NCBI GenBank assembly: GCA_963981015.1
Contig: CAXCCG010000004.1
Span: 1,720 to 65,719, forward strand
Direction: 5' to 3'
Length of the DNA: 64,000 nt
From: an uncultured Gammaproteobacteria bacterium
GTDB taxonomy: Bacteria; Pseudomonadota; Gammaproteobacteria; GCF-002020875
Position numbers and translations under genes: made by a program. Positions 1,825-44,524 of the stretch are shown here, piece after piece. Position 1 is the stretch's first letter. Every line of letters starts with the position of its first letter. The notes under the pieces are model-generated. The model made no database searches and was not told the DNA's origin. It was given only the letters and a program-made list of their open reading frames with translations.

Positions 1825-1835
1825 GGATTGCCATT

Positions 1836-2513: not shown

Positions 2514-2574
2514 GATTGGTTGACAGTGTTTCAGAGCAGGGTACGATCATCGACATTCTATAGGAGTAGACCGA

Positions 2575-3558: not shown

Positions 3559-3670
3559 TGTAATGAATGCCTACACTATAAATACCTTTTAAAACTTATG
3601 GTAAAGTTAGCACTTAGTTGTATAGCAGTGATTCCCATTAATTTTCGAAGGCAGTTCTCTTTTTATCGAT

Positions 3671-6805: not shown

Positions 6806-6914
6806 GGGTGACAAGGTCAGAAGCGAATGGCTGCAGCTGGGTGTGAGTCACTGTTGCGTTGGAGCAGAGTCTTGATAATACCCGCTCTCCCGGTCTGACT
6901 ATCTAAAAGAGCAC

Positions 6915-8063: not shown

Positions 8064-8788
8064 AGCCGAAACTTGTACTGATTCATGGCTGGGGATTCAA
8101 CGGAGCCGTCTGGAATTCACTATTGCCGCAATTAAAGCAGCTATTTGAGGTGATTGTCGTTGATCTTGCAGGATATCGCAGCCAGCCTCTGCTGGATGAA
8201 ATGACACTTGAGGCAATGGCTGTTGACGTTGCAGCCAGAGTGCCGGAGTCGGCAATCTGGCTGGGTTGGTCTCTGGGGGGGCAGGTGGCACTACAGGCGG
8301 CATTGAAACAGCTTGGCCAAATCAACAAGCTGATTCTGGTGGGGGCAACCCCCCGTTTTGTGCAGGGTGCAGGGTGGAGAGCAGCGGTTAAGCAGAAGAT
8401 ATTGGATGACTTTGGTGAGGCGCTGATCCGCTCGCGTGAGACCACCTTGGGTCATTTTCTGACCCTGCAGATGTTGGGGGTACAGGATGCAAAACCATTG
8501 TTGCAAGAACTCAAAATCTCATTGGCACAATCCCCGCAAGCTGGCACCCTGGAGGCGGGACTGGAGATTCTCAATCACAGTGATTTTCGCCAGCAGCTGA
8601 GCCAGATTGAGCAGCCAACACACTGGATTATGGGCGAGCGCGATCAACTGGTTCCATACCGTGCAGGAGAAGAGGCCGCTGGTGTTATGCCAAACGGCTC
8701 TGTCCGAGTCATTGAAGGGGCGGCACATGCCCCTTTTCTCAGCCACCCACATCAATTTTTGGATGAGGTGTTCAGCTTTGGAGGATAA
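8060..8788 (+). CDS. bioH: Pimeloyl-ACP methyl ester esterase
   Basis: HGWG, GWSLGG and AAHAPFLSH motifs; lies between bioF and bioC. Confidence 0.93.
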   Translation: MKPKLVLIHGWGFNGAVWNSLLPQLKQLFEVIVVDLAGYRSQPLLDEMTLEAMAVDVAARVPESAIWLGWSLGGQVALQAALKQLGQINKLILVGATPRFVQGAGWRAAVKQKILDDFGEALIRSRETTLGHFLTLQMLGVQDAKPLLQELKISLAQSPQAGTLEAGLEILNHSDFRQQLSQIEQPTHWIMGERDQLVPYRAGEEAAGVMPNGSVRVIEGAAHAPFLSHPHQFLDEVFSFGG

Positions 8789-9644
8789 GCGTTATCAACT
8801 GCAGCGACAGCAGGTCCGTGCCAATTTTGATCGGGCAGCGGGTAGCTACGATGCGGTGGCTCAGTTGCAGCGTGAAGTGGCAGACCGGATGTTGGAGCAG
8901 TTGCAGTATGAACGTATTAATCCGCAGCGAATTCTCGATGTAGGTACGGGTACCGGTTACTGTGCCCGTGGTCTGGAGGCTAGATTCAAAAAGAGCTCAA
9001 TTATCGCGCTTGATCTGGCAGAGAGGATGTTGCAGCAGGCGAAAAAGGAGAAGCGGTGGCGCTCCAGGCAGTGTTTTCTCTGTGCGGATACACAACAGAT
9101 CCCCTTGGCAGACCAGAGTGTTGATCTGATCTTCTCCAACTTCACGTTGCAATGGTGCAGAGATTTACAGGCTGTATTGGCAGAGTTTCGAAGGGTGCTA
9201 CGTCCGGGAGGGCTGCTGAGCTTCTCCACTTTGGGGGTCGATACCTTGGCTGAGTTGCGTGAAAGCTGGGCGACAGTGGATGATCAGGTCCACGTAAACC
9301 AGTTTGTGGATTTGCAACAGGTCGGGGATGATCTGTTACAGCAGGGGTTTGCCGAACCGGTTACCAGTGTGGACCGTTTCACCTTGACCTACCCGGATGT
9401 GATGAGCCTGATGCGAGACCTGAAAGGGTTGGGTGCAACCAATGTGAACCCTGGACGGCGTGCCGGTTTGATGGGGCGTTCTGTGCTACAGCAGTTAGAG
9501 GCAGTCTATCAGCCTCGTGATGAAGAGGGGCGTATTGCAGCCAGCTGGGAGGTGGTTTATGGACATGCCTGGATGATGGAGAGTAGTTTTGCTGAACCCC
9601 AACCATTTTCTCTACCCCTGAAAGAATTTACTATACCTGATTAA
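8778..9644 (+). CDS. bioC: Malonyl-ACP O-methyltransferase (start probably TTG 8778 or ATG 8763, not 8607)
   Basis: FDRAAGSYD, SAM-binding motif LDVGTGTG, LQWC and VNQFVD. Confidence 0.92.
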   Translation: MEDKRYQLQRQQVRANFDRAAGSYDAVAQLQREVADRMLEQLQYERINPQRILDVGTGTGYCARGLEARFKKSSIIALDLAERMLQQAKKEKRWRSRQCFLCADTQQIPLADQSVDLIFSNFTLQWCRDLQAVLAEFRRVLRPGGLLSFSTLGVDTLAELRESWATVDDQVHVNQFVDLQQVGDDLLQQGFAEPVTSVDRFTLTYPDVMSLMRDLKGLGATNVNPGRRAGLMGRSVLQQLEAVYQPRDEEGRIAASWEVVYGHAWMMESSFAEPQPFSLPLKEFTIPD

Positions 9645-9751
9645 AATAGTAGGTCTTGACAGGCCGTGCAGAGTCGTTATGATTCGCATACAAGATTTAT
9701 TGATTTTTAGCAGTACAATTTTATTTTAAGCACAAAGCAAGGAGTTAACAT

Positions 9752-10357
9752 ATGAGCGTATTAGTCGGACGCGAAGCACCAGATTTTACAGCCCCAACAG
9801 TTCTCGGAAATGGCGAGATCAAGGCAGATTACAACTTCCATGAGGCGAAAGCTGGAAAATATGCGGTCGTATTCTTCTATCCTCTCGACTTCACTTTTGT
9901 TTGTCCTTCTGAGTTGTTGGCTTTCGACCACCGTATGGCGGAGTTTGAAAAGCGCAATGTTGAGGTGGTTGGTGTGTCCATCGACTCACATTGGACACAC
10001 AATGCCTGGAGAAACACCGATGTGAAAGATGGTGGTATCGGTGCGGTGAAGTATTCAATGGTGGGTGACATGAAGCAGGAAGTCACGCAGGCATTTGGCA
10101 TCCAGGTTCCTGGTGGTGCACCTGCACTGCGCGCCTCTTTCTTGATCGACAAAGATAATATTGTTCAGCATCAAGTCGTAAATAACCTTTCGCTGGGACG
10201 TAATGTCGACGAGATGATCCGTATGGTTGATGCTTTGCAGTTTACAGAAGAGCATGGTGAGGTCTGTCCTGCGGGTTGGCAGGAGGGAGATGAGGGTATG
10301 AAAGCAACCCCAGAGGGTGTTGCCTCTTACCTCGCTTCACATGAGAATGACCTGTAG
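9752..10357 (+). CDS. ahpC: 2-Cys peroxiredoxin (AhpC/Prx1)
   Basis: FYPLDFTFVCPSE and GEVCPAGW. Confidence 0.93.
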   Translation: MSVLVGREAPDFTAPTVLGNGEIKADYNFHEAKAGKYAVVFFYPLDFTFVCPSELLAFDHRMAEFEKRNVEVVGVSIDSHWTHNAWRNTDVKDGGIGAVKYSMVGDMKQEVTQAFGIQVPGGAPALRASFLIDKDNIVQHQVVNNLSLGRNVDEMIRMVDALQFTEEHGEVCPAGWQEGDEGMKATPEGVASYLASHENDL

Positions 10358-10374
10358 TTTTTAGTCACACTCTG

Positions 10375-10410
10375 AAAAAAGGGTACAGCTGAAAGGCTGT
10401 ACCCTTTTTT
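10375..10410. terminator. Bidirectional intrinsic terminator between the convergent ahpC and pilA
   Basis: AAAAAA-GGGTACAGC-loop-GCTGTACCC-TTTTTT. Confidence 0.9.
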
Positions 10411-10422
10411 ATTGAGCCTTCT

Positions 10423-10839
10423 TTATTGTGTGTAGCCCTTGGTCACTCCACCGCCACTGGCGGCCCAGCTGAGGGGCGAAGCGGCAGTGGGTGTCAGAAT
10501 ATAAGTATCAGCAGCCACTACACCATTGGCTACATCGGGTGTAACGGTGACAATGCCATTACTGGTTGAGACTGAGTCTACAGCTCCGGTGACCGTTGTC
10601 TGGTTGGCGGGTACTCCATAACTTCCACCATCACAATCAGCCAGGTCTCGACGAATCTGATAACACTGCTCGATCCCGATTTTGAGTGGTTGGGCAGCGA
10701 GAACGACCTCAGAGTAGTAGGCGCGTGTGGTGTATTGGGTATAGGAGGGGATTGCGACTGAGGCCAGGATTGCAATAATAGCGATGGCTATAATCAGTTC
10801 AATGAGTGTGAACCCGCTCTGGTTCTGTGACTGTTCCAT
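10423..10839 (-). CDS. pilA: Type IV major pilin
   Basis: Prepilin cleavage site QSG|FTLIELIIAIAIIAILASVAIPSY; ATG 10839 preceded by a GGAG RBS. Confidence 0.88.
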   Translation of the reverse strand: MEQSQNQSGFTLIELIIAIAIIAILASVAIPSYTQYTTRAYYSEVVLAAQPLKIGIEQCYQIRRDLADCDGGSYGVPANQTTVTGAVDSVSTSNGIVTVTPDVANGVVAADTYILTPTAASPLSWAASGGGVTKGYTQ

Positions 10840-35160: not shown

Positions 35161-36672
35161 TTACCGGGTGAGCAGAACCGTTGCTGCCGCACGTTCATCT
35201 CCGTAGAGTTGGCTGAGAATGGGCTCGATTGCTTCAGCACTGAGTGGGCCTTCAATCAACTGCTGTTGTCCCAGCTGTTCAATGATCAGGAAGGGGTTGG
35301 CGCTGCGTTCCAGAAGTCGCTCAAGCTGTTTCACCGATAAGGGCTGAGAGAGGTAGTGATGCTGTAATCTGTTTTTACCACTCAGTGCAGAGATCGCCTT
35401 ATAGCGATTCTCTCCAAACAGCTCCTGAATAAGATCAATCAGGTGATCTCCATCCATTTTCTGTAGCGACCCTATATCAGCCATCTGTTGAATCAGCTCA
35501 TCCTGGTAGGCACTACCCTCCAGTAGGGTTGACGCAGCCGTTGCGTCAATTGAGTTTTGCAGGTAACTCTGCTGCAGCTCATTATTGCCGAGTAGTGCGC
35601 TGAGTGCATCATAACGGTCGGCACGGGTGAGTGACCCCAGTAGTTGCAAAGCCTCATCCGGGTTGAGTGGTGACTGGAGTGCCTGATGATCGGTAAACAG
35701 CCCGATCATCTCATCTTGATAGGCCATTCCATCCAGTAGAGTACGAGCCTCGGAGAGCCCCAGCGGAAGTTGCAGATAACCTTGTTGTTGGCGATTCTCG
35801 CCGAGCAGGGATTTGACAACATTGAAGCGGTCGGTGTGTTGAATATCCTGCAGTAGTTGTTGGCTTTCAGTGGCGGTCAGTGGTGCTGCAAAGAGGCCAC
35901 GGTTGGTAAAGTGTCGAATAATCTCTTCGGGGAGGGCACTTCCCCGGACGAGCTGTAAAGCATCCGCATGGGAGAGCGGAAGCGCAAGATAATCTTGCTG
36001 TTGCTGGTTCATCCCCAATAGCGCCTTAACGGCATCGTGACGCCCCATCGGACCCTGTTGACCGATAATCTGTTCCGCCTCTTTGACGGTGAGAGCTGTC
36101 GTGAAGAGTGTTCGGTCTGCCATATAACGGATCATTCCTGACCGATCATGGCTCTGATTGAGTAGTTGGTTGGCCTCTTTTACCCCAAAAGCAGAGAGTC
36201 CGTAGTTTTGCGCAAGGCGATTACTGCCGAGTAATGCACGTAGCGGCTGATCATATCGGCGACTCCCGGCAGCCCCCATGAGTGTCTGTATTTGATCCGC
36301 ATTCATGTTGGGGCTTGGAACCCCATAGTCTGCAAGATATTGAATAATCTCCTCACGTTGTGGACCGACCCCGGATAACAGAGTGTTAATCTGCTCTGTA
36401 GAGAGAGGCTCAGAGATCAGCTTGTGATGAGAGCGATTATTTCCAAACATTGATTTAATCGCGTAGTAACGGTCACTGTTGGAGAGGCCTTGCAGCATGT
36501 TAAGCCCTTGATCAAATGAAAAGGTTTGGTTTTCCCAGATAGAATCAGCAAATTCAGAGATAGAGGCCCTGCGCTCATAACCTGTTTTGCCTTCCAGTAG
36601 ATCAACTTCTGCACCATTTACAGTGTGTGCTGTGGCGATCATCAACAGTAGCGGGGAGAGTAGTTTGTTCAT
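35161..36672 (-). CDS. Secreted helical-repeat hypothetical protein
   Basis: Signal peptide and about six imperfect ~70-aa repeats of the type RYDALSALLGNN..QSYL. Confidence 0.75.
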   Translation of the reverse strand: MNKLLSPLLLMIATAHTVNGAEVDLLEGKTGYERRASISEFADSIWENQTFSFDQGLNMLQGLSNSDRYYAIKSMFGNNRSHHKLISEPLSTEQINTLLSGVGPQREEIIQYLADYGVPSPNMNADQIQTLMGAAGSRRYDQPLRALLGSNRLAQNYGLSAFGVKEANQLLNQSHDRSGMIRYMADRTLFTTALTVKEAEQIIGQQGPMGRHDAVKALLGMNQQQQDYLALPLSHADALQLVRGSALPEEIIRHFTNRGLFAAPLTATESQQLLQDIQHTDRFNVVKSLLGENRQQQGYLQLPLGLSEARTLLDGMAYQDEMIGLFTDHQALQSPLNPDEALQLLGSLTRADRYDALSALLGNNELQQSYLQNSIDATAASTLLEGSAYQDELIQQMADIGSLQKMDGDHLIDLIQELFGENRYKAISALSGKNRLQHHYLSQPLSVKQLERLLERSANPFLIIEQLGQQQLIEGPLSAEAIEPILSQLYGDERAAATVLLTR

Positions 36673-36760
36673 CAGAGGCTCCTTCTCGAAGGGAAAAATT
36701 AAAATCAGCTGAATGGTAGCAATTTATTGCCTGCAGTGAGAAAGGTTTATGGCGATCATT

Positions 36761-36901
36761 TTAGTTTGGAGATACCCACACCATCTCTTCGCGAAGATTA
36801 ATAGTTCGTGTGTAGCGCGTGTGCTCCCCTTCTATGGCGCGACTCCTGTCAGAGTGTTCATCGGGCCTTACAGTCAGGTACAGATGGTTGGTCATCAGAC
36901 A
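36761..36901 (-). pseudogene. REP-associated tyrosine transposase (RAYT/Y1) remnant
   Basis: Reads CLMTNHLYLTVRPDEHSDRSRAIEGEHTRYTRTINLRE, compared with the RAYT pattern CLMTNHVHL..RAIGEAHRRYTRRINFRE; HUH is altered to HLY and the fragment is truncated at the MITE. Confidence 0.7.
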
Positions 36902-36906
36902 CCTAA

Positions 36907-37085
36907 GGAACCTCTGAACAAGTCTGGGTAATTTGAATTACGTCCATAGCGTCCAAGATCAAGGCGAAGATCGCAGCCAATAGCAGGCTATTAGCAAGAT
37001 TTTCAACCGAGGAACGAGGTCGAGCAACGAAGATATTGGGCGCTATGGGCGTTAGACATTTACACATGACTTATTCAGGGGTTCC
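36907..37085 (+). mobile_element. MITE copy 2 (179 bp)
   Basis: Same TIRs as copy 1, with a CTAA duplication. Confidence 0.85.
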
Positions 37086-37147
37086 CTAAGCCTCTACCCC
37101 TTCTACACGACTCCAATTCAATGGGAGCCAAAGTGGGCCGAATAGTT

Positions 37148-37187
37148 GAAATGTAACGAAATGTAACGAAATGTAACAAAATGTAAC
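37148..37187 (+). repeat. Four tandem 10-bp repeats (GAAATGTAAC x3, then AAAATGTAAC)
   Basis: Read directly from the sequence; lies ~30 bp upstream of the putative DGR promoter. Confidence 0.9.
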
Positions 37188-37219
37188 AGCAATTGGGCGG
37201 AATATCGGGAAACAACCGC

Positions 37220-37249
37220 TTGCAAAAGCCATCCTCCTGACACTAGAAT
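37220..37249 (+). promoter_or_regulatory. Putative sigma70 promoter of the DGR operon
   Basis: TTGCAA-18 bp-TAGAAT. Confidence 0.45.
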
Positions 37250-37332
37250 CCCCGCCAACGACAACCAGAGGAATAATGCACTATTTAAAATAACCCATTT
37301 AATCTTGCAGCCTCACGGATGAGGGAACCATT

Positions 37333-38994
37333 ATGACCAACCAACCAACCAACCAACCAACCAACCAACCAACCAACCAACCAACCAACCGAAATAATTC
37401 TCGTTTAGCAGAGCTAAACCAACGATTCAGGCAGTTCTCTCTTCCGCTCCTCCTTGCTGCAACCCTCACCGCTTGTGGCGGTAGTGATGAAGCCGTCGTT
37501 ATCCCCCCCGCCTCCAGCAGCGGTCAGGTACAGAAAGGGCCATACCAGATCGGCTCCACCGTCACCGCCTACCGACTCGATGGTTCCGGTAACCGCACCG
37601 GCGAGAGTGTCACCACCCAGACCACCGACAACCTCGGTAGCTACAGCCTCAACACCGACTGGAGCGGGGCCACCGAAATCGAGGCGAGTGGCAACTTCCT
37701 GGATGAGAGCAGCGGCAATGTCACCACCACCCCGCTCACCCTCAGTGCCGTGGTCGATCTGCAGATGGGGGATACCACCAACATCAACCTCTTCACCCAC
37801 CTCCACGGTACGCGAACCAAAAACCGCATGGCCCTGTTCGGAATCACCACCGCCAGCAGCCTCGCCGCAACCGACCTCAAAAACAGTTACGGGCTACAGC
37901 TGAGCAATAGCACCCAACCCCACCAGCTCGACCTCACCGATGGCAGTGATTCCACCTCCAAATCAGACAACGCCCTGTTGCTGCTCTACTCCGGCGCACT
38001 GGTCACCGGCAATCAGGATGGCTCAGGCACCCTGCAGCAGAGCGTACTCAACAACCTCGCCACCGACTTTGGAGATAACGGTGCCATCGACGGGGTAGGC
38101 AACAGCGCCCATCTCAGTACCCGCACGGCTGCCCGTACCACCAGCATCGACACCCTGCGTACCAACCTGCACAACAACAGTGCCGGTGCCATCACCGATG
38201 CCCCGGCAGAGGCGGACCTGACCGTGCGCCCCTACGCCCTCAAGGCAGGCTTCCTCAACGATACCGGCATCACCCTCTGCGGGGACTACGCCTACGGGGT
38301 CACCGGCAGTGGCAACCACCACAACAACGTCGACTGCACACTCGCCACCGATGTCGATGGTGACCCGGTACCTGATGGGCAGGATGCCGATTATGGACGG
38401 GACAAAACGGCCAACGACAACAGCGATGGTCACGCCGGATTCAGCTTCACCAAACTCGACAGCAACGGTGACCCACTAACGGACCAGAGTGTCGCCTACA
38501 ACGTCACCCCCTGGTCCTGCGTACGCGACAACGTCAGCGGACTGATCTGGGAGGTCAAAACCGACACCGCAGGGCGCCACAACAAGGATGACACATTCAA
38601 CTGGTACAACAGCGACACCACCACCAATGGCGGTAATGCCGGTAGCGCCGATGACGATGGCAATATCTGCTTCGGCTACGATGTCACCGAGGCAGCCAGC
38701 TACTGCAACAGCCAGGCCTACACCGCACGGGTCAACAGCGCCACACTCTGTGGGGCCAGTGACTGGCGCATGCCCACCAGAGAGGAGTTACGCTCCATTG
38801 TCGCCTATGACCGCACTATTCCGGCCATCGACACCGACTACTTCCCCAACACGGTAGCCAACTGGTTCTGGTCGGCCTCGCCGAATGCCGGTATTAGTGA
38901 CAGCGCCTGGATCGTCAACTTCTACTATGGCAACGTCAACAGTGCCAATAAGTCCAATGGATTTCGGTTGCGGTTGGTGCGCGCCGGACAGTGA
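37333..38994 (+). CDS. DGR target 1: lipoprotein with a C-terminal DUF1566/Lcl (C-type-lectin-like) domain
   Basis: GAGGGA RBS, lipobox LTAC, VRDNVSGLIWEVK and DWRMPTREEL; the C-terminus is encoded by VR1. Confidence 0.92.
   Translation: MTNQPTNQPTNQPTNQPTNRNNSRLAELNQRFRQFSLPLLLAATLTACGGSDEAVVIPPASSSGQVQKGPYQIGSTVTAYRLDGSGNRTGESVTTQTTDNLGSYSLNTDWSGATEIEASGNFLDESSGNVTTTPLTLSAVVDLQMGDTTNINLFTHLHGTRTKNRMALFGITTASSLAATDLKNSYGLQLSNSTQPHQLDLTDGSDSTSKSDNALLLLYSGALVTGNQDGSGTLQQSVLNNLATDFGDNGAIDGVGNSAHLSTRTAARTTSIDTLRTNLHNNSAGAITDAPAEADLTVRPYALKAGFLNDTGITLCGDYAYGVTGSGNHHNNVDCTLATDVDGDPVPDGQDADYGRDKTANDNSDGHAGFSFTKLDSNGDPLTDQSVAYNVTPWSCVRDNVSGLIWEVKTDTAGRHNKDDTFNWYNSDTTTNGGNAGSADDDGNICFGYDVTEAASYCNSQAYTARVNSATLCGASDWRMPTREELRSIVAYDRTIPAIDTDYFPNTVANWFWSASPNAGISDSAWIVNFYYGNVNSANKSNGFRLRLVRAGQ
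37336..37390 (+). repeat. Tetranucleotide SSR (CCAA)13, 55-nt tract, in frame (ON state)
   Basis: Perfect repeat starting immediately after the ATG and encoding TNQP repeats. Confidence 0.95.
38865..38994 (+). repeat. DGR variable repeat VR1
   Basis: 130 nt colinear with TR; 12 mismatches at TR adenines plus one G->C in the last sense codon. Confidence 0.96.
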
Positions 38995-39016
38995 TTGGAT
39001 TTTTGAGTAGACGATC

Positions 39017-39409
39017 ATGAGACACCTGCAACGCTACCCCATCTGGCGCGATGCCAACCGCCTGCTGGTTGAGATCGAGCGTGCCGTGCGCGGCTTTCCC
39101 CGTTACCACAAATACACCCTGGGCAGTGAGCTGCGCCGACAGGCGATGACCATCTGTCGGCTGATATCCCGTGCGATCAGTGACAAGCAGCGACAGTATC
39201 ACCACCTGGAACGGCTGAAGCTTGCGGTCGATGACCTCAAGACCCAGATTCAGCTTGCCAAAGAGCTGCAGGTCTTTTCCAGTTTTACCCAATTTCAGAC
39301 GCTATCGGAACTTGCCGTAGCCGTCGGCAGACAGAGCGGGGGGTGGGCCAAACGGTTGATCAGCAACAACCCGAAGTCCCCTTCTGTAACCGAAGGGGGC
39401 GTGTGTTGA
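39017..39409 (+). CDS. avd: DGR accessory variability determinant (Avd, four-helix bundle)
   Basis: FPRYHKYTLGSELR and VGRQSGGW; basic 130-aa protein between VR1 and TR. Confidence 0.88.
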   Translation: MRHLQRYPIWRDANRLLVEIERAVRGFPRYHKYTLGSELRRQAMTICRLISRAISDKQRQYHHLERLKLAVDDLKTQIQLAKELQVFSSFTQFQTLSELAVAVGRQSGGWAKRLISNNPKSPSVTEGGVC

Positions 39410-39546
39410 ACTCACTGTGCGCCCGTACCCCCCTTGTACGACGAGGGGATGGTGATACAGACCTTGCTACCAGCAGGATGGAAGGTCGGTGGGGAAGAGG
39501 GAATTCATCCCCTCTTTCTGTGAAGTGTATGGGTTATTCCTGTCCT

Positions 39547-39676
39547 GTTCTGGTCGGCCTCGCCGAATGCCAATAATAGTGACAACGCCTGGATCGTCAA
39601 CTTCAACAATGGCAACGACAACAATGACAATAAGTCCAATGAAAATCGGTTGCGGTTGGTGCGCGCCGGAGAGTGA
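39547..39676 (+). ncRNA. DGR template repeat (TR)
   Basis: AAT/AAC-rich template copy of both VRs, with 35 adenines in the variable part, between avd and RT. Confidence 0.96.
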
Positions 39677-41159
39677 GCTGGCGACGCTCTTCAATTTTCC
39701 CGCACTCTGGCAGGCCTATATCACCTGTCGCAAGGGAAAACGGGGGAGTCGCAATACCCAGCACTACGAGATCAGCCTGCTGGATCGACTGATTGATACG
39801 CTGGATGCGCTGAAAACAGCCCGATGGACCCCCTCCCGCTCTGTACTCTTTGTCGTTACCCGCCCCAAGATGCGCGAGATCCACGCAGCAGACTTTTCAG
39901 ACCGGGTGGTTCACCATCTGCTGGTGCCCCGGCTGGAACGGCTCTATGAGCCAACCTTTATTCACGACAGCTACTCCAACCGAAAAGGCAAAGGGACCCA
40001 TGCAGCCGTAGAGCGACTGCAGCACTTTATGCGCAAGGTGACCCGTAATCAGACCCGGCCAGCCCACTACCTTCAGTTGGACATCGCTAACTTCTTCAAT
40101 ACGATTGATCGCCCTACGCTCTGGAAACAGCTACAACATCGACTGCGCAAGGCGCAACAGAGGGGGGCAGAGGATAGAGGAGTGACACCACAAGAGCAGC
40201 AGGAACTGCTCTGGCTCACCCACCGTATCCTCAGGCAGAATCCCACAGAGCATGCCCTATTGCGAGGTTCCCCCGATGAATTTGCCCGGATCCCTCAGCA
40301 CAAAAGGCTCTCGGCAGCACCAGCTGACAAAGGGCTTCCCATCGGCAACCTGACCAGCCAGTTCTTCGCCAACGTCTATCTTAACGAACTGGACCAGTTC
40401 ATCAAGCACACCCTCAAGGCGGACTACTATCTTCGCTATGTGGATGATTTCATTCTACTGCACCAGAACCCGGAGCAGCTGGAGCAGTGGAGAAAAGAGA
40501 TTGCCGATTTTCTTCAGCAGAGACTACAGCTGAAGCTGCGCCCTCAACAAATCCTCAAACCGGTTACCGATGGGGCCGACTTCCTCGGCTACATTGTGCG
40601 ACCCGACTACCGTCTGGTACGCCGAAGAGTGGTCGGGCACCTGAGAGAGCGGTTACAGCACCTTCAGCAACAGCTGATAGAGAGAACAAAAAAAGGGACC
40701 ACCCTGCGCTTAAAGCAGGCACACCGACAACAGCTACATGCCATGCTGGCAAGTTATCTCGCCCATATCCGTCATGCCAGTAGCCACAACCTGCTACAGA
40801 CACTATGGAGAGAGTTTTCGTGGCTGGATCATGTTTTTCAGCGGCCAGAGAGTGCGACAGCAACACTCCTTCCCCGTTGGAAACCAGAGCGTGTCAGCTC
40901 CTTCGCCAGTCAGCAACGCTGGTTTAAACAGAGACTGCCCGGCTACCACCTGCTGATCCAGCGTGGTAGTGCATTTCTGGTCGCGAATCATGCAGAAGAG
41001 GAGGGCAGAGAGATCCCACTTAACAGCCTTAAATCGATACGAACCAACCTGCGTAACCGACAGATCCCACACGCCTTTATTGCCGAAGAGGGGTACCTGA
41101 AAGGGGGGCTCAAACAGCGGGTTCTGCGACTGCTCTGGCAACCCACACCAATGATCTGA
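39639..41159 (+). CDS. DGR reverse transcriptase with a C-terminal MutS-I-like extension (start uncertain; frame open from 39489)
   Basis: CRKGKR, REIHAADFSDRVVHH, QLDIANFF, the DGR signature GLPIGNLTSQ, YLRYVDDF and DFLGY. Confidence 0.95.
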   Translation: MKIGCGWCAPESELATLFNFPALWQAYITCRKGKRGSRNTQHYEISLLDRLIDTLDALKTARWTPSRSVLFVVTRPKMREIHAADFSDRVVHHLLVPRLERLYEPTFIHDSYSNRKGKGTHAAVERLQHFMRKVTRNQTRPAHYLQLDIANFFNTIDRPTLWKQLQHRLRKAQQRGAEDRGVTPQEQQELLWLTHRILRQNPTEHALLRGSPDEFARIPQHKRLSAAPADKGLPIGNLTSQFFANVYLNELDQFIKHTLKADYYLRYVDDFILLHQNPEQLEQWRKEIADFLQQRLQLKLRPQQILKPVTDGADFLGYIVRPDYRLVRRRVVGHLRERLQHLQQQLIERTKKGTTLRLKQAHRQQLHAMLASYLAHIRHASSHNLLQTLWREFSWLDHVFQRPESATATLLPRWKPERVSSFASQQRWFKQRLPGYHLLIQRGSAFLVANHAEEEGREIPLNSLKSIRTNLRNRQIPHAFIAEEGYLKGGLKQRVLRLLWQPTPMI

Positions 41160-41182
41160 AATAACCAAGGAGTTGATCCACC

Positions 41183-41707
41183 ATGTACATACTGAAAACA
41201 ACCTTCACCCTGCTGTTCTGTGCACTGCCGTTCCTCACTCATGCCGCACAGAGCTGCAACAGCGCCATCCCGCGCAGTGCCCCCGACAGCCGCTATATCG
41301 ACCATGGTGACCGTACCGTGACCGACAGCGAAACCGGGCTGATGTGGAAGCAGTGTAGTGAAGGGTTGAGTGATAGTGGTTGCGTCAGCGGGGCCATTGA
41401 AACCTTTAACTGGCAAGAGGCGATGGCACGGGCAGAGAGCATCAACAGCGGTGCCGGGTTTGCCGGATATACCGACTGGCGGGTCCCCGATATCAAGGAG
41501 TTGGCCTCGCTGGTCGAGATCGCCTGCTACTCACCGGCAATCAATGAGACCCTGTTTCCTGCGACCCCCGCCAGTGGGTTCTGGTCGGCCTCGCCGCATG
41601 CCCTTAGTAGTGACTACGCCTGGGTCGTCCTCTTCAGCAATGGCGGCGACAACGATGACGCTAAGTCCGATGCCTATCGGTTGCGGTTGGTGCGCGCCGG
41701 ACAGTGA
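41183..41707 (+). CDS. DGR target 2: secreted DUF1566/Lcl protein
   Basis: Signal peptide, TVTDSETGLMWKQCSEG and DWRVPDIKEL; the C-terminus is encoded by VR2. Confidence 0.92.
   Translation: MYILKTTFTLLFCALPFLTHAAQSCNSAIPRSAPDSRYIDHGDRTVTDSETGLMWKQCSEGLSDSGCVSGAIETFNWQEAMARAESINSGAGFAGYTDWRVPDIKELASLVEIACYSPAINETLFPATPASGFWSASPHALSSDYAWVVLFSNGGDNDDAKSDAYRLRLVRAGQ
41578..41707 (+). repeat. DGR variable repeat VR2
   Basis: 130 nt colinear with TR; 18 mismatches at TR adenines plus the same G->C as VR1. Confidence 0.96.
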
Positions 41708-41734
41708 GTTGGTTTTTTGAATTTGAAATAGTGA

Positions 41735-43687
41735 ATGGAAGCACAGTTTATGAATAGAGTAGATAAGCTTAGAAGATCAGTTTTTTGGGCTCTGTTGTTG
41801 GTCACGGTGTTACTGCAGACCGGCTGTGTCCAGAATACGGCCTTCAGGACAGAAGCAGATGAGATATTGATCAAGGGTGCAGAATTAGAAATACCGTACG
41901 ACATCGCCTTTATCGAATTCGATGATCAGGGGCAGTACCAGAATCCGTCTCAGAGAGATTTGGTGCTGGAGCAACTGGCTGAGATCTCTGATTCGAGCGA
42001 TACAATTGTGGTGACCTATGTGCATGGGTGGACTCATAACGCCAAACAGGGGGACTGTGATGTGGCAGAATTTCTGGGACTGCTCCAACAGCTGGGGGAT
42101 ATAGAGCAGTTCAAAGAGAATGGCAGAAAGGTTCTGGGAATCTATATTGGCTGGCGGGGTAGCGCCATCGACTCGGATCTGCTGGAATGGACCACGTTTC
42201 TGGATCGAAAAAATGCCGCACTGAGAGCCGCGACCAGTGATGTGGTGGAACTCTTTTCTGCCCTGCACCACTGGCGTGACCGCAAATGGAAGGAGTATAG
42301 CTGGATCAAGAAGAACCCGAGCCGTCTGATTATGGTGGGGCACAGTTTGGGGGCGAGTCTGGTCTATAGCGCAATCTATCAGGTGATGATCGATAATTTC
42401 AGAGAGGCACAGACCCTGTCCGGGAGTGGAATCGTAGACCAGAACCATATTGTTCAGGGTTTTGGTGATCTGGTGGTGTTGGTCAATCCGGCCCTGGAAG
42501 CGGCCAGTGTTCAAACCCTCTGGAGGATGCAGCATGAGGTGATTCGTGCAGCGGATCAGAACCGGAAAAAGGGGGTAGTCGGGTTTTCAATACGGCAACA
42601 GCCGGAGCTGGTGGTGCTGGGGTCTGAATCGGACTATGCGACTAAAATTGCATTTGCCGTGAGCCAGTCGGTTGGTAGCGTATTTGAGACTTATCGCTAC
42701 AACCATGAACGTAATGATCTTGATGGAGCAGTCAATTTTCCCCCCGAAGAGCAGTTTCAGGCCGATACCACGGCGATTGGTCACTATCGTCCCTATCGAA
42801 CGCACCGCTTGATGAAAAATGAGACTGCTAGGGATGAACGTATTGATATGGCTGACGAAGGGAAGGGTGAGGCAGATGAAATCAGGAGGTGCGAACAGGG
42901 AATCAGGAAACCCGGCGCACTGACCTCTCTGGTCCGACAGGTACACAACCGGGAAGAAGACCCTGTCTGCTTTCCCTACTGGTTTGTTGCCGTCGACAAA
43001 GCGTTGATGGATGGGCACAGTGCCAATCTGGGTAGTAATGATGAAATCAAAGATTTCATCGAAAAGGTGGTGCTGAGTAAACTGGATAACAAGTTTCTGA
43101 ATGAGAAATACAGGAACCGGGTAACCCGTACGGTGTATGGGGTACCGAAAACCGGGCAGGAGCACTGCTACGATACTACAGGACAACTAGCCTCCTGTGC
43201 AGATACCGGGCAGGATGGGGAGTTCAAGAGTGGCATCAGCCACCCTGTGCCACGGTTTGAAGCGATGGAGAGCGGTGTCATCAAGGATAACCTGACCGGG
43301 CTGGTGTGGCTCAAAGAGGTGGACTGTGAGGTACTCAACCCCGATGAAGCCGGTAGCGCCTGGCCGGTAAAGGTAGAAGAGATCCAGCAGTTGGAGAGCG
43401 GTCAGTGTGGTCTCAACGATCTCTCGCGTGCCGGGGACTGGAGACTGCCCAATCGCAATGAACTCAATTCACTCTTCTATCTGGGGGAGAAACATCCGAT
43501 ACTCTCCTTAACAGGAGAAGAGGTCATGGCAAAACGGATTTGGTCCTCCACCAGCGAGCAAAAGAGTGAAGGCAAAAAGGCATGGATGGCGGATCTGGAA
43601 CAGGGGGTAATGGCGGCTGTGGACAAGATAGGACAGAAGGGGTATCTCTGGGCGGTCAGGGGTGCGGTACCTTCACGGGGAGAGTGA
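41735..43687 (+). CDS. Lipoprotein: alpha/beta-hydrolase-like domain fused to a DUF1566 domain
   Basis: Lipobox-like QTGC, YVHGW and GHSLG, then VPKTGQ, DNLTGLVW, DWRLPNRNEL, WSST and WAVR. Confidence 0.75.
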   Translation: MEAQFMNRVDKLRRSVFWALLLVTVLLQTGCVQNTAFRTEADEILIKGAELEIPYDIAFIEFDDQGQYQNPSQRDLVLEQLAEISDSSDTIVVTYVHGWTHNAKQGDCDVAEFLGLLQQLGDIEQFKENGRKVLGIYIGWRGSAIDSDLLEWTTFLDRKNAALRAATSDVVELFSALHHWRDRKWKEYSWIKKNPSRLIMVGHSLGASLVYSAIYQVMIDNFREAQTLSGSGIVDQNHIVQGFGDLVVLVNPALEAASVQTLWRMQHEVIRAADQNRKKGVVGFSIRQQPELVVLGSESDYATKIAFAVSQSVGSVFETYRYNHERNDLDGAVNFPPEEQFQADTTAIGHYRPYRTHRLMKNETARDERIDMADEGKGEADEIRRCEQGIRKPGALTSLVRQVHNREEDPVCFPYWFVAVDKALMDGHSANLGSNDEIKDFIEKVVLSKLDNKFLNEKYRNRVTRTVYGVPKTGQEHCYDTTGQLASCADTGQDGEFKSGISHPVPRFEAMESGVIKDNLTGLVWLKEVDCEVLNPDEAGSAWPVKVEEIQQLESGQCGLNDLSRAGDWRLPNRNELNSLFYLGEKHPILSLTGEEVMAKRIWSSTSEQKSEGKKAWMADLEQGVMAAVDKIGQKGYLWAVRGAVPSRGE

Positions 43688-43694
43688 GTAAAGA

Positions 43695-43707
43695 ATTCAG
43701 GGGTTCC
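43695..43707 (+). mobile_element. Orphan MITE terminal repeat
   Basis: ATTCAGGGGTTCC followed by TTAA, identical to the end of copy 1. Confidence 0.65.
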
Positions 43708-43709
43708 TT

Positions 43710-43804
43710 AATCTTCTCAAAGGGTGGTGAGGATATCTATGGCAAGGGCGTTTCTCTTCCTCTCTTATGGATGAGTCATGGTTATTAAAGGCATTGCCTA
43801 TGTA
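43710..43804 (+). pseudogene. Second RAYT remnant
   Basis: Reads NLLKGW*GYLWQGRFSSSLMDESWLLK, then IAYV after a frameshift, compared with the RAYT pattern GWRGHLWQGRF.S..MDE..LL...YV. Confidence 0.7.
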
Positions 43805-43854
43805 GTGCCTGACCGAAAAGCAGTTTTCACTTGAAAACTCAATGGAATAAGGCT

Positions 43855-44139
43855 CTAAGATCTCTCAACCAAATCACCATGAGCAAATTGATGAATGATT
43901 GATGAGACCAGTGTTTGGTATGGAACTCCTTTCTGATACGCAATTGATTTGATTTTTTGGATGTCTTGCTCCTGTACTCGTACTGTAATTGGCCTCTTCT
44001 TGACCGTTGCGATGGCAGCGGCCTGAAGCGTCTCAATATGTGCAGAGAGATTCTTTTCTGCTATATATTCATCATTCTCTACAGCATCAACTATAGCTGT
44101 CTCTTCAGAGTCCAACACATCGTATTTTTTGTTGATCAT
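43855..44139 (-). CDS. Antitoxin (BrnA/CopG-like ribbon-helix-helix)
   Basis: KRPITVRV and GVPYQTLVSSII; overlaps the toxin stop codon. Confidence 0.8.
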   Translation of the reverse strand: MINKKYDVLDSEETAIVDAVENDEYIAEKNLSAHIETLQAAAIATVKKRPITVRVQEQDIQKIKSIAYQKGVPYQTLVSSIIHQFAHGDLVERS

Positions 44140-44396
44140 AAATATTTCCTTTGCATTTTCCGGTCTCTGAACATTGTTTTAAGAAACACTTTCTCCCCAT
44201 CAATAACGTAAGGAACAGTGACGGCATAATTATTAACTTCTATGATCATTAAGCGCTGGTGCGATCGCTCTGGGTCTGGATGCTTAAGATCCGCTAAGAT
44301 ACGGCCATCCATGATAGCTTCAAGAGCATCTTCAAAAGAGAGAGCACGTAGCTTTTGCAGAAGTTGATTCTTATCATCATCCCATTCAATGATCAT
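44136..44396 (-). CDS. BrnT-like (DUF497) type II toxin
   Basis: IEWDDDKN, SFED and VFLKTMF. Confidence 0.8.
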   Translation of the reverse strand: MIIEWDDDKNQLLQKLRALSFEDALEAIMDGRILADLKHPDPERSHQRLMIIEVNNYAVTVPYVIDGEKVFLKTMFRDRKMQRKYL

Positions 44397-44524
44397 TTTA
44401 CATATAGTATCTGATGTACATTCAATGTCAATATATGCTCCAGTGATAGCATGAGGCTACTCTGTACCAGGAGCCCAACCGTTTCAGTATATAATGGTGA
44501 CCTAACCATTGGCATGAGGCGACT

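What the first reader, a model, noticed from the sequence alone, without database searches (positions are those of the whole stretch)
37333..41707. Complete two-target diversity-generating retroelement: one TR drives adenine-specific variation in two flanking DUF1566 proteins
Seen in sequence: the order is target 1 (VR1 38865-38994), avd, TR (39547-39676), RT, target 2 (VR2 41578-41707). Gap-free hand alignment gives 12 differences for VR1 and 18 for VR2 at TR adenines. The only other difference is a shared G->C in the last sense codon (GAG vs CAG), which looks like IMH* vs IMH. In target frame, TR reads FWSASPNANNSDNAWIVNFNNGNDNNDNKSNENRLRLVRAGE, VR1 reads FWSASPNAGISDSAWIVNFYYGNVNSANKSNGFRLRLVRAGQ and VR2 reads FWSASPHALSSDYAWVVLFSNGGDNDDAKSDAYRLRLVRAGQ. 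The 35 variable adenines allow up to 4^35 DNA variants per target. Established: this is mutagenic retrohoming as in Bordetella phage BPP-1 and the Legionella and Treponema DGRs, acting on CLec-fold ligand-binding tips. Inference: a lipoprotein and a small secreted protein are diversified independently and may work together as a combinatorial surface receptor. No phage genes are nearby, so this looks like a cellular DGR.
Basis: partly seen in the sequence, partly recalled or inferred. Interest (0 to 1): 0.92.

Follow-up and report, generated by a model that had tools for sequence, protein, structure and literature searches.

The report
Active two-target diversity-generating retroelement
This is a genuine chromosomal diversity-generating retroelement in an uncultured marine gammaproteobacterium that rewrites the binding tips of two neighbouring surface or secreted lectin-fold proteins, a well-known kind of system that here can be seen varying in natural populations.

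Summary
TR 39547-39676 matches VR1 38865-38994 with 13 differences (12 at TR adenines) and VR2 41578-41707 with 19 (18 at adenines). Both share one extra G>C.

The parts are target 1 (Lcl_C/DUF1566 lipoprotein), Avd, TR, a DGR-type RT and target 2 (small secreted Lcl_C protein). Flanks for at least 14 kb are housekeeping genes.

New here:
- Public marine metagenome contigs fork exactly at VR1 and VR2. All 35 of 35 listed allele differences sit on TR adenines and the flanks are identical.
- Protein clusters agree: 159 of 161 VR residue differences lie at A-containing TR codons. The element has therefore been active recently.
- The genome holds a second, paralogous DGR with the same gene order on another contig. 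A same-genus species has a third.
- A complex predictor supports pairing of the two target domains (0.87 against 0.01 for the best control). The chains are paralogues, so this is only a hypothesis.
- Target 1 starts with an ACCA tetranucleotide repeat that could switch it on and off. This is untested.

Two targets and DUF1566 targets are both documented for DGRs (PMC5758913). This is a new member of a known kind, of moderate interest.

The parts
37148..37187 (+). 10-nt tandem repeat GAAATGTAAC x4 in the upstream region of target 1. Role unknown.
   Evidence: Tandem Repeats Finder; the repeat finder D3.
37333..38994 (+). Target 1: 553-aa predicted lipoprotein (lipobox L-T-A-C, Cys48 at 37474-37476) with a C-terminal Lcl_C/DUF1566 domain.
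   Evidence: ORF. Pfam Lcl_C E 3.3e-32, residues 396-550. The lipobox was read by eye. The N-terminal ~370 residues have no family and a low-confidence model.
37336..37390 (+). Tetranucleotide repeat (ACCA) x13.8 directly after the only usable ATG of target 1. Candidate translational on/off switch.
   Evidence: Both other frames stop 1-5 codons after the repeat and no other start reads into it. Length variation in nature is not established (the assembler-k caveat applies).
38865..38994 (+). VR1, the last 42 codons plus the stop of target 1.
   Evidence: 12 A-site differences plus 1 G>C against TR. A second allele coexists in runs X12 and X13. At least 3 alleles plus one frameshift form occur in protein clusters.
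39017..39409 (+). avd accessory gene (130 aa).
   Evidence: Pfam bAvd 47.6 bits, cut-off 40. PHROG 3206 'Avd protein of DGR' E 7.5e-21. NCBIfam DivGenRetAVD 49.3 bits, below its cut-off of 80.
39331..39350 (+). Upstream arm, inside the avd 3' part, of a 20-nt complementarity. Candidate long-range duplex of the DGR RNA.
   Evidence: the repeat finder I5, 85% complementary. It is the best local pairing between the 250 nt before and the 250 nt after TR; 2 of 100 shuffles reach it. The homologous pair in DGR2 is reached by 0 of 100 shuffles. G006 is not significant, 38 of 100. The role is inferred.
39547..39676 (+). TR, template repeat: 38 A, of which 35 are in the mutable part, and 13 AAY codons in the target frame.
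   Evidence: No differences in any laid contig (pieces 38965-41596 with 0 other letters).
39639..41159 (+). DGR reverse transcriptase. The start is probably the ATG at 39639 inside TR (inferred). The open frame runs from 39489.
   Evidence: Pfam RVT_1 E 9.4e-20. PDB best hit 8ub7_A E 9.2e-36, with IGNLTSQ and YVDD aligned. PHROG 1423 E 2e-101. Below the cut-offs of the group II, retron and Drt models.
39825..39844 (+). Downstream arm of the candidate long-range duplex, 149 nt after the TR end, inside the RT gene.
41183..41707 (+). Target 2: 174-aa secreted protein (Sec-type signal peptide read by eye) that is essentially one Lcl_C/DUF1566 domain.
   Evidence: Pfam Lcl_C E 1.4e-37. AF2 model pLDDT 91.8. 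Fold matches: Lcl-CTD Z 12.5, TvpA Z 9.4, Mtd Z 8.4-8.8.
41578..41707 (+). VR2, the last 42 codons plus the stop of target 2.
   Evidence: 18 A-site differences plus 1 G>C against TR. A second allele occurs in X12 and X13. The window allele is on 98 contigs and the second allele on 41.
41735..43687 (+). Adjacent, undiversified paralogue: 650-aa predicted lipoprotein with a weak alpha/beta-hydrolase-like N-terminal part and a C-terminal Lcl_C domain. It has no match to TR.
   Evidence: Pfam Lcl_C E 4.1e-17; DUF900 and Lipase_3 below cut-off. No TR hit there. It is the only Lcl_C gene of the genome that is not a DGR target.

Best explanation
This is a complete, recently active, chromosomal diversity-generating retroelement of an uncultured marine gammaproteobacterium.

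How it works: an RNA containing TR (39547-39676) is copied by the RT (about 39639-41159) together with Avd (39017-39409) into cDNA, with random bases placed opposite template adenines. The cDNA replaces VR1 at the 3' end of the lipoprotein gene 37333-38994, or VR2 at the 3' end of the small secreted-protein gene 41183-41707. Direction is set by the invariant GC-rich 31-nt 3' end. There the VRs carry C and the TR carries G at the position written as index 124 (IMH versus IMH*).

Effect: 20 codons on the C-type-lectin-fold face of each Lcl_C/DUF1566 domain are re-drawn, giving about 1e20 protein variants per target. The scaffold and TR stay constant.

Shown: anatomy, family membership of the parts, fold, A-restricted allelic variation in nature, and cellular context.

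Inferred: the cDNA and retrohoming steps themselves (by homology with the Bordetella phage BPP-1 system), the RT start, the lipoprotein and secreted locations, and the ligand-binding role.
For: - TR/VR counts: 12 of 13 and 18 of 19 differences are at TR adenines, and the remaining difference is shared.
- Parts: Avd passes Pfam bAvd, and both targets pass Lcl_C. PHROG gives 'Avd protein of DGR' at 7.5e-21 and RT phrog_1423 at 2e-101.
- RT: the best solved relative is 8ub7_A at E 9.2e-36, with the IGxLTSQ and YxDD letters aligned. The next best are group II RTs at 4e-10. The preprint 10.1101/2023.10.23.563531 (passages read) names bRT I181, Q187, D215 and D216. By my count these fall on exactly those aligned letters.
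- Activity in metagenome contigs: in runs X12 and X13 the contigs fork into two unitigs only at 38854-38992 and 41567-41706. Depths are 13.8 vs 14.4 and 19.7 vs 11.8 in X12, and 8.28 vs 6.3 and 13.3 vs 7.8 in X13. The long flanking pieces have 0 other letters. All 35 of 35 listed differing positions are TR adenines.
- Activity in protein clusters: 92 of 94 (target 2, 14 members compared) and 67 of 67 (target 1, 9 members compared) VR residue differences lie at A-containing TR codons. Only 7 and 1 residue differences lie outside the VRs.
- IMH: all 6 VRs of DGR1, DGR2 and the G006 element end GGACAG. The 3 TRs read GGAGAG, GGAGCG and GGAAAG.
- Fold: model pLDDT 91.8. Lcl-CTD 8q4e Z 12.5, TvpA 2y3c Z 9.4, Mtd 1yu0-1yu4 Z 8.4-8.8.
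- Context: 20 flanking ORFs are housekeeping or signalling genes, with no phage family among them.
- Codon design: 13 AAY codons. Only one mutable codon (AAG) can become a stop, and it is kept in every allele seen.
Against: - Only two dominant alleles per VR are seen. VR2 has 98 and 41 contigs. VR1 has the window allele in 5 listed members with 37 contigs, against the second allele in 4 members with 31 contigs. The alternative alleles are identical in X12 and X13. Turnover may therefore be slow or episodic, and contigs hide rare variants.
- Run X14 shows only the window alleles.
- No significant hairpin follows either VR (z 0.79 and 1.00), unlike the cruciform described for BPP-1 (recalled).
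- Avd is below NCBIfam's curated cut-off (49.3 against 80 bits).
- No cDNA, no RNA ends and no raw reads were seen. All laid runs were Logan contigs.
- Transcription is not shown. RNA-library contigs cover most of the cassette, but DNA carry-over cannot be excluded.
- One VR2 residue difference (A146S in P0132, 1 contig) is not at an A codon.
Confidence: 0.92

Rival explanations
1. The two targets are not independent receptors. They pair through their Lcl_C domains, so that the anchorless target 2 is held on lipoprotein target 1. The two independently diversified VR faces then lie side by side in one composite binding surface.
For: complex prediction on target 1 residues 300-553 plus target 2 residues 23-174 gave a median score of 0.87 against a best control of 0.01. 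That mark was reached by 58 of 80 solved complexes and 2 of 110 mismatched pairs. The runs agree in at least 91% of contacts and the partner pLDDT is at least 93. My own alignments were used, so the calibration counts hold only roughly. The listed interface includes 8 of 20 (target 1) and 12 of 20 (target 2) variable positions (my mapping). One long-type and one short-type Lcl_C target in the same order are kept in DGR1, DGR2 and the G006 element, although their RTs are only 47-60% identical. Related DGRs carry 2-3 small Lcl_C targets. The solved relative Lcl-CTD is an oligomer, a homotrimer (PMC11162425, passages read).
Against: The two chains are paralogues, 47% identical over 107 residues. 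The predicted contacts are pseudo-two-fold (my reading). The pass may therefore only reflect a homodimer tendency of the domain or docking of sticky binding faces. The tool notes that close cousins of a true partner also pass. An interface made of hypervariable residues is hard to keep through 1e20 variants. In DGR2 the short-type domain is the N-terminus of a 1124-aa protein.
Confidence: 0.25
2. The element is a fossil. The VR differences arose long ago, and today's alleles are simply strain markers inherited vertically.
For: Two alleles per VR dominate across many contigs and sources. The alternative alleles in X12 and X13 are the same. X14 has a single allele.
Against: RT, Avd and TR are intact, and TR is invariant in all laid contigs. 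The 4.8-kb surroundings show 0 differences while each VR allele pair differs at 18 positions. Such a contrast is not expected from ordinary strain divergence. Additional minor alleles exist (P0132, P0268) as well as mixed forms. All of this variation is at A codons.
Confidence: 0.08
3. The cassette belongs to a prophage or other mobile element, and the targets are phage receptor-binding proteins.
For: The nearest RT relatives outside the genus (43-50% identity) lie on IMG/VR viral contigs of up to 81 kb and in Xanthomonadales loci next to ParB-like and HNH genes. A MITE-like repeat lies 240 nt upstream, and a fragment of its end lies just after the third Lcl_C gene. The DGR is patchy in the genus: 2 of 14 other species have an RT match.
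Against: Twenty flanking ORFs within about 14 kb are nadC, pilus, cobalamin, two-component, adk, aroB/aroK and secretin genes, with no phage family. PHROG hits of the targets are weak families of unknown function. Target 1 has a lipoprotein signal and target 2 a Sec signal (read by eye). No integrase or tRNA lies beside the cassette; the only tRNA is at 63678.
Confidence: 0.03

Closest known systems
Legionella pneumophila DGR with the lipoprotein target LdtA. This is the 'category d' / CLec2 class of Wu et al. 2018 (PMC5758913, passages read).
   Same: Both are chromosomal DGRs. The target is a surface lipoprotein whose diversified C-terminus lies in a DUF1566-type C-type-lectin domain. About half of this class are short proteins made of the DUF1566 domain alone, like target 2.
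   Different: Here one TR serves two targets that flank avd-TR-RT. Target 1's signal shows no twin-arginine motif (read by eye; that LdtA uses Tat is recalled). No sequence comparison with LdtA itself was run.
Bordetella phage BPP-1 DGR (mtd-avd-TR-brt).
   Same: The order target-avd-TR-RT is the same. Avd and an RT with the IGxxxSQ and YxDD motifs are present. The VR is at the C-terminal end of a CLec-fold protein (Mtd Z 8.4-8.8). There is an IMH-like invariant GC-rich 3' end.
   Different: This element is cellular, not phage. A second target lies downstream of the RT. There is no non-coding spacer after TR: the RT frame starts inside TR, so any priming region must overlap the RT gene. No hairpin follows the VRs. 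The RT is about 165 aa longer than the 328-aa chain.
Multi-target DGRs, such as those of Treponema denticola and Stenotrophomonas (Wu et al. 2018).
   Same: One TR serves several VRs. The survey found 50 of 372 DGRs (13%) with two targets and also describes internal VRs.
   Different: The flanking layout with one long-type and one short-type Lcl_C target is kept in three elements of this genus. The nearest outside relatives place 2-3 targets in tandem upstream.
Xanthomonadales and IMG/VR DGRs with 2-3 small Lcl_C targets (loci L009-L018, L053-L064).
   Same: These are the nearest RT clade, at 43-50% identity. They have avd-TR-RT, several Lcl_C targets and A-biased TR/VR mismatches.
   Different: Their targets all lie upstream, and they sit in a mobile or viral context. 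They lack the long-type domain with the LNDTG motif (a crude test).
Simple-sequence contingency loci of host-adapted bacteria, for example tetranucleotide repeats in Haemophilus surface-protein genes (recalled, no call).
   Same: A unit of 4 bases is repeated about 14 times directly after the start codon of a surface-protein gene. Any change of plus or minus one unit gives a stop within 5 codons.
   Different: Repeat-length polymorphism is not established here. The organism is a free-living marine bacterium. A combination with a DGR was not found in print: 0 papers hold 'diversity-generating retroelement' plus 'tetranucleotide repeat', and the 2 papers with the slipped-strand and phase-variation terms were seen in the listing only.

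Membership tests
Diversity-generating retroelement | TR/VR repeat pair whose differences are restricted to TR adenines. | tested here: met
   12 of 13 and 18 of 19 differences are at A, and the remaining one is shared at the 3' end.
Diversity-generating retroelement | RT of the DGR type (IGxxxSQ motif in the palm, YxDD), closer to DGR RTs than to group II intron or retron RTs. | tested here: met
   Best PDB hit 8ub7_A at E 9.2e-36 with both motifs aligned; group II RTs reach 4e-10 or worse. Below the cut-offs of the group II, retron, Drt and AbiA models. PHROG 1423 E 2e-101. That 8ub7 is the BPP-1 RT is my inference from the residue numbering. No formal tree was built.
Diversity-generating retroelement | Accessory gene (Avd or HRDC) next to TR and RT. 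| tested here: met
   Pfam bAvd 47.6 bits, over the cut-off of 40. PHROG 3206 E 7.5e-21. NCBIfam equivalog 49.3 bits, under its cut-off of 80.
Diversity-generating retroelement | IMH at the VR 3' end that differs from IMH* in the TR, and a 3' boundary of mutagenesis just upstream of it. | tested here: met
   The last changed A is at index 98. The following 31 nt are invariant except for C (VR) against G (TR). The pattern repeats in 6 of 6 VRs and 3 of 3 TRs of three related elements. Function is inferred.
Diversity-generating retroelement | VR varies in populations while TR and scaffold stay constant (activity). | tested here: met
   Contig forks occur only at the VRs, and 35 of 35 listed differences are at TR adenines. 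159 of 161 VR residue differences are at A codons, against 8 residue differences outside the VRs. Contigs only; rate unknown.
Diversity-generating retroelement | Hairpin or cruciform downstream of the VR. This is an enhancer in BPP-1, not a defining feature of the family (recalled). | tested here: inconclusive
   DNA folds of 81 nt around both VR ends: z 0.79 and 1.00, no stable stem.
C-type-lectin-fold DGR target, DUF1566/Lcl_C class | Pfam Lcl_C domain with the VR at its C-terminal strands, and a CLec fold. | tested here: met
   Lcl_C E 3.3e-32 and 1.4e-37. Model pLDDT 91.8. Foldseek top hit 8q4e at E 1.5e-5. VIA Z 12.5 for Lcl-CTD, 9.4 for TvpA, 8.4-8.8 for Mtd. Only target 2 was modelled with confidence. 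The C-terminal third of the target 1 model is confident and the rest is not.
Phase-variable simple-sequence contingency locus | A repeat whose unit is not a multiple of 3, inside the reading frame, such that slippage switches translation off. | tested here: met
   (ACCA) x13.8 at 37336-37390. Single start at 37333; the other frames stop after 1 and 5 codons.
Phase-variable simple-sequence contingency locus | Repeat number varies within or between populations. | tested here: inconclusive
   Other assemblies give 2 instead of 4 TNQP units (P0263, P0269, P0271; 10 contigs). Members listed with 68 contigs have gene calls that begin at internal Met145 or Met166. However, the assembled repeat lengths of 55 and 31 nt equal common assembler k values. 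Logan contigs break in the repeat and the tool masks it.

The most novel reading that the evidence does not exclude
The long-type lipoprotein target and the short-type secreted target form a heteromer in which two independently diversified VR faces adjoin. That would be a two-chain variable receptor with antibody-like combinatorial logic (about 1e20 x 1e20 combinations). Display of the anchored chain would additionally be gated by slippage of the ACCA repeat. The same pairing is kept in both DGRs of this genome and in a congener.
Probability: 0.15. Interest if true: 0.8.

Novelty: new member of a known kind. Interest (0 to 1): 0.4.

Why it matters
This is a clean natural example of a cellular DGR in an abundant, uncultured marine gammaproteobacterium. 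Its diversification can be read directly in public metagenomes. The stretch is held by 20 listed runs of 16 studies, of which 5 runs may be the source.

It offers a tractable system with two paralogous DGRs and four VRs in a 2.5-Mb genome. In that genome every Lcl_C gene but one is a DGR target. Three questions become testable:
- How fast cellular DGRs turn over in situ.
- Whether VRs fed by one TR change independently.
- Whether multi-target DGRs encode subunits of one receptor.

None of the confirmed features is new in kind.

Tried and rejected
- Remote VRs: the fourth genome hit of TR (C77) was at first a candidate third VR. It differs from TR at 35 positions, only 4 of them A, and proved to be the TR of a second DGR. 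No other VR was found.
- JGI metagenome contigs held no near-identical locus (best 56% over a short piece). Neither repeat length nor VR alleles could be read there.
- Read laying: the ACCA repeat is masked and contigs break there, so it gives no information on repeat number. In the RNA run X15, contigs leave 38871-38964 and everything after 41597 uncovered.
- The differences at 40349-40367 come from 82-nt pieces of other contigs with 11 other letters. These are other organisms' RT motif regions, not variation of this element.
- Rfam: no match in 36000-44500 at E up to 1.
- Hairpins after the VRs: none above shuffles.
- RNA duplexfold over long arms was uninformative and was replaced by a local scan.
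- My regex classing of the relatives' targets picked wrong frames in GC-rich loci. Only the Pfam check of L011 is relied on.
- PDB sequence searches: no hit for target 2. Avd hit only 2gsc at 4e-5.
- Target 1 residues 1-370: no Pfam family apart from a PT-repeat hit on the TNQP repeat, a low-confidence model and only unnamed Atlas clusters.
- Phasing VR1 with VR2 alleles from shared contig lengths or neighbouring records was considered and dropped. Assemblers pick alleles at bubbles arbitrarily, and mixed forms such as P0001, P0125, P0130 and P0264 look like such chimeras.
- P0134 is target 2 with a TR-identical VR, including the TR's final Glu, on a 699-nt contig. It is most simply a misassembly.

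Full report
**Observation.** The three 130-nt segments align without gaps: VR1 38865-38994, TR 39547-39676 and VR2 41578-41707. VR1 differs from TR at 13 positions, 12 of them TR adenines. VR2 differs at 19 positions, 18 of them TR adenines. The one remaining difference is the same in both: G in TR and C in the VRs, five bases before the stop. TR has 38 A, of which 35 precede an invariant 31-nt GC-rich 3' end. Thirty of thirty mismatches falling on A, when A is 35 of the first 99 bases, has a chance of order 1e-14 (my arithmetic). The repeat finder recovers the same three-copy family (D1).

**Components.**
- Target 1 (37333-38994, 553 aa) has a C-terminal Lcl_C/DUF1566 domain (E 3.3e-32).
- ORF 39017-39409 passes Pfam bAvd.
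- The long frame 39489-41159 carries RVT_1.
- Target 2 (41183-41707, 174 aa) is one Lcl_C domain (E 1.4e-37).
- PHROGs calls the small ORF 'Avd protein of DGR' (7.5e-21) and matches the RT to phrog_1423 at 2e-101. NCBIfam's Avd equivalog scores 49.3 bits, under its cut-off of 80.
- The RT stays far under the cut-offs of the group II intron, retron, Drt and AbiA models.
- Among solved structures the RT's best relative is the 328-aa chain 8ub7_A (E 9.2e-36), with LPIGNLTSQFFANVY and RYVDD aligned to PIGSLTSQLFANVY and RYMDD. Group II intron RTs follow at 4e-10.
- The preprint 10.1101/2023.10.23.563531 (passages read) names bRT residues I181 and Q187 at the incoming base and D215/D216 as catalytic. 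By my count on the alignment these are exactly those letters. I therefore take 8ub7 to be the Bordetella phage RT; the depositors' name is only 'Reverse transcriptase'.
- The RT homology begins about 10 nt after TR, and no start codon lies there. The in-frame ATG at 39639 inside TR is the likely start. DGR2 has an ATG at the equivalent place, while the G006 element starts just after its TR. This is inference.

**Direction signal.** The two VRs here, the two VRs of a second DGR in the same genome and the two VRs of a DGR in a congeneric species all end GGACAG before the stop or onward frame. The three TRs read GGAGAG, GGAGCG and GGAAAG. No adenine after index 98 is ever changed in any allele. 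No hairpin above shuffled controls follows either VR.

**Activity in nature.** The 4.8-kb stretch is held nearly whole (0.95-0.98 of sampled words) by 14 DNA runs labelled marine or seawater metagenome, and in part (0.60-0.79) by 6 RNA-library runs. Together these come from 16 studies, and 5 runs are flagged as a possible source. I laid three DNA runs and one RNA run; all are Logan contigs, not raw reads.
- In X12 and X13 the contigs break into two alternative unitigs only at 38854-38992 and 41567-41706. One unitig is identical to the window. The other has 18 other letters. Their depths are similar: 13.8 vs 14.4 and 19.7 vs 11.8 in X12, and 8.28 vs 6.3 and 13.3 vs 7.8 in X13.
- The long pieces between the forks (37401-38883 and 38965-41596) have 0 other letters.
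- X14 has single contigs through both VRs with the window alleles.
- All 35 of 35 listed differing positions (17 in VR1, 18 in VR2; the table withheld 4 rows) are TR adenines. The paired one-base insertion and deletion in VR2 resolves into A-site substitutions when read without gaps.

Protein clusters give an independent view.
- The window's target 2 sequence occurs on 98 contigs and a second allele (P0122) on 41. There are also single-contig variants and apparent chimeras.
- Target 1's cluster holds the window allele, a second allele (P0259 and others), a variant (P0268) and a form with a frameshift inside VR1 (P0261, P0263, P0270; 10 contigs).
- Over 14 and 9 members compared, 92 of 94 and 67 of 67 VR residue differences lie at A-containing TR codons. 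Seven and one residue differences lie in the rest of the proteins. I left out P0128 (75 aa), P0136 (17-aa duplication), the three truncated members of cluster 2 and the six target 1 members with a different N-terminus, a frameshift or a truncation. Three of the 18 target 1 cluster members were never listed.

The element has thus rewritten both VRs more than once in a population whose flanks are identical. Only two alleles per VR dominate, and they recur across runs, so the rate may be low. Contigs also hide rare variants.

**The genome holds more.**
- Searching the 2.48-Mb assembly (130 contigs, 98% complete) with TR gave the TR, the two VRs and a fourth hit on contig C77. That hit is not a remote VR. 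It is the TR of a second DGR with the same order: a 1190-aa Lipase_3 plus Lcl_C target, avd, TR2, RT (60% identical), then a 1124-aa protein whose Lcl_C domain and VR are N-terminal and internal.
- Within the aligned repeat, its VRs differ from TR2 at 26 and 21 adenines, plus a GC>CA change at the 3' end (28 mismatches with 26 at the A strand base).
- A family search finds only five Lcl_C genes in the genome. Four are DGR targets. The fifth is the undiversified lipoprotein gene 41735-43687 next to DGR1.
- Among 40 relatives, an RT match was found in 2 of 14 other species of the genus and 1 of 26 further genomes. One of them (G006, RT 47% identical) again has long target-avd-TR-RT-short target, with 15 and 19 A-only differences.

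**Context.** Twenty ORFs within about 14 kb on either side are housekeeping or signalling genes: nadC, a type IV pilus ATPase, cobD, a ROK kinase, two-component proteins, adk, aroB, aroK and a secretin. No phage family is among them.

The nearest RT relatives outside the genus (43-50% identity) are in Xanthomonadales genomes and on IMG/VR viral contigs. Of 35 such loci from the genome and metagenome scans, 18 show two or three VRs, 8 show one and 9 show none; these last are mostly short contigs. All VRs lie upstream of TR. In Dyella locus L011 the three targets are small Lcl_C proteins beside ParB-like and HNH genes. Multi-target Lcl_C DGRs are therefore typical of this RT lineage.

**Targets.**
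- With an 81-row alignment, target 2 folds at pLDDT 91.8.
- Foldseek's top hit is the Legionella Lcl C-terminal domain (8q4e, E 1.5e-5), followed by C-type-lectin-like proteins.
- The second-look aligner gives Z 12.5 for 8q4e, 9.4 for Treponema TvpA (2y3c) and 8.4-8.8 for the Mtd variants. The CLec-fold claim is met.
- TR holds 13 AAY codons. Twenty codons can change, giving about 1.3e20 protein variants (4^35 DNA variants). Only the AAG codon can turn into a stop, and it is Lys in every allele seen.
- The lipobox (Cys48) of target 1 and the Sec-type signal of target 2 were read by eye.
- Target 1's first ~370 residues have no assignable family or confident model.

Target 1 residues 300-553 with target 2 residues 23-174, each with its own alignment, scored 0.87 (three runs: 0.87-0.88) against 0.01 for the best of three controls. 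That mark was reached by 58 of 80 solved complexes and 2 of 110 mismatched pairs. The runs agree in at least 91% of contacts and the partner pLDDT is at least 93. Because my own alignments were used, those counts hold only roughly. The model supports binding; it does not show it.

The contacts are pseudo-two-fold (for example 1:490 with 2:105 and 1:484 with 2:108), and the two chains are 47% identical paralogues. The solved relative Lcl-CTD is a homotrimer (PMC11162425, passages). The pass may therefore reflect a general self-association of the domain. The listed interface contains 8 and 12 of the 20 variable positions. That fits either adjoining variable faces or a docking artefact. I rate real pairing at about 0.25.

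**A second switch?** Target 1 begins ATG followed by (ACCA) x13.8. It is the only tetranucleotide repeat of five or more units in the genome. No other start reads into it, and a change of one unit leads to a stop after 1 or 5 codons. Other assemblies show two instead of four TNQP units. Members listed with 68 contigs have gene calls that begin at internal methionines. But repeat lengths of 55 and 31 nt equal common assembler k values, so this is not evidence of slippage. Long reads are needed. I found no paper that joins DGRs with tetranucleotide repeats (0 papers). One search gave 2 papers, seen in the listing only.

**RNA features.** The best local complementarity between the 250 nt before and the 250 nt after TR joins 39331-39350 (avd 3' part) with 39825-39844, 149 nt after TR; 2 of 100 shuffles reach it. 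The homologous pair in DGR2 lies 150 nt after TR2 and is reached by 0 of 100 shuffles. In G006 nothing significant is found (38 of 100). It may correspond to the upstream/downstream duplex described for DGR RNAs in the preprint. Both arms encode conserved peptides, so the link is only a lead.

**Comparison and verdict.** Wu et al. 2018 (PMC5758913, passages read) report the following:
- 50 of 372 DGRs have two targets.
- A DUF1566 class makes up 14% of DGRs and is exemplified by the Legionella lipoprotein LdtA.
- About half of that class are short, domain-only proteins.
- Internal VRs occur.

Everything confirmed here fits that picture. This is a new member of a known kind, made more useful by direct evidence of diversification in nature, a paralogous second element and a testable pairing hypothesis. 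Source names of near-identical proteins read 'Gammaproteobacteria bacterium' MAGs.

Noticed in passing
window 36903-37092; partial end copy at 43695-43717: A MITE-like element of about 190 nt with terminal inverted repeats lies 240 nt upstream of target 1. Dozens of copies at 75-98% identity lie across the genome, many at contig ends. In the laid runs its word depth is 2000-3900 per bin (up to about 7900 at single positions), against 12-50 for the flanks, in the RNA library too. It has no Rfam match.
   Followed up: partly
G000 contig C77 (L052), about 1524-10701, minus strand: A second, paralogous DGR: a 1190-aa Lipase_3 plus Lcl_C target, avd, TR2, RT, then a 1124-aa protein with an N-terminal Lcl_C domain and an internal VR (C77 4398-4531). 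The frame continues for about 950 residues past that VR.
   Followed up: partly
window 37148-37187 and the junction near 37172: A 10-nt tandem repeat x4 lies upstream of target 1. In runs X12 and X13 one contig each joins at 37172 to a different upstream sequence. This suggests a structural variant of the promoter region, such as presence or absence of the MITE.
   Followed up: no
VR1, proteins P0261, P0263, P0270 (10 contigs): A VR1 form with a one-base frame change in the A-run part of the repeat. It replaces the last 14 residues with a 23-residue tail. It could be a DGR-made indel allele or an assembly error.
   Followed up: no
target 2 variants P0134 and P0136: P0134 (699-nt contig) carries a VR identical to TR, including the TR's final Glu codon. 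This is probably a misjoin of target 2 with TR. P0136 has a 17-residue tandem duplication before the VR.
   Followed up: no
window 41735-43687: A lipoprotein with a weak alpha/beta-hydrolase signature and a C-terminal Lcl_C domain that no TR matches. DGR2's first target has the same lipase plus Lcl_C layout but is diversified, so this may be a former target.
   Followed up: partly
window 39331-39350 with 39825-39844: A 20-nt complementarity (17 Watson-Crick pairs plus 1 G-U) between the avd 3' part and the RT 5' part. It is conserved in place in DGR2. It is a candidate long-range helix of the DGR RNA.
   Followed up: partly
RT, residues about 377-493 of the translation of 39678-41159: A C-terminal extension of about 120 residues beyond the end of the 328-aa solved RT. 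It is shared by the G006 RT (match to residue 487). No family is assigned.
   Followed up: no
G000 C9:42536-42590, C8:1-55 and other contig ends: Other long simple repeats (ATTGT x11, GTATT x11, hexamers and octamers at contig ends). The genome may hold several slippage-prone loci.
   Followed up: no
window 43855-44139, minus strand: A small ORF with a CopG-antitoxin-like match (E 1.8e-5, under the Pfam cut-off) just beyond the DGR island.
   Followed up: no
window 35161-36672, minus strand: A 503-aa secreted-looking protein made of repeated units of about 45 residues, with no Pfam family over cut-off. It is the upstream neighbour of the cassette.
   Followed up: no
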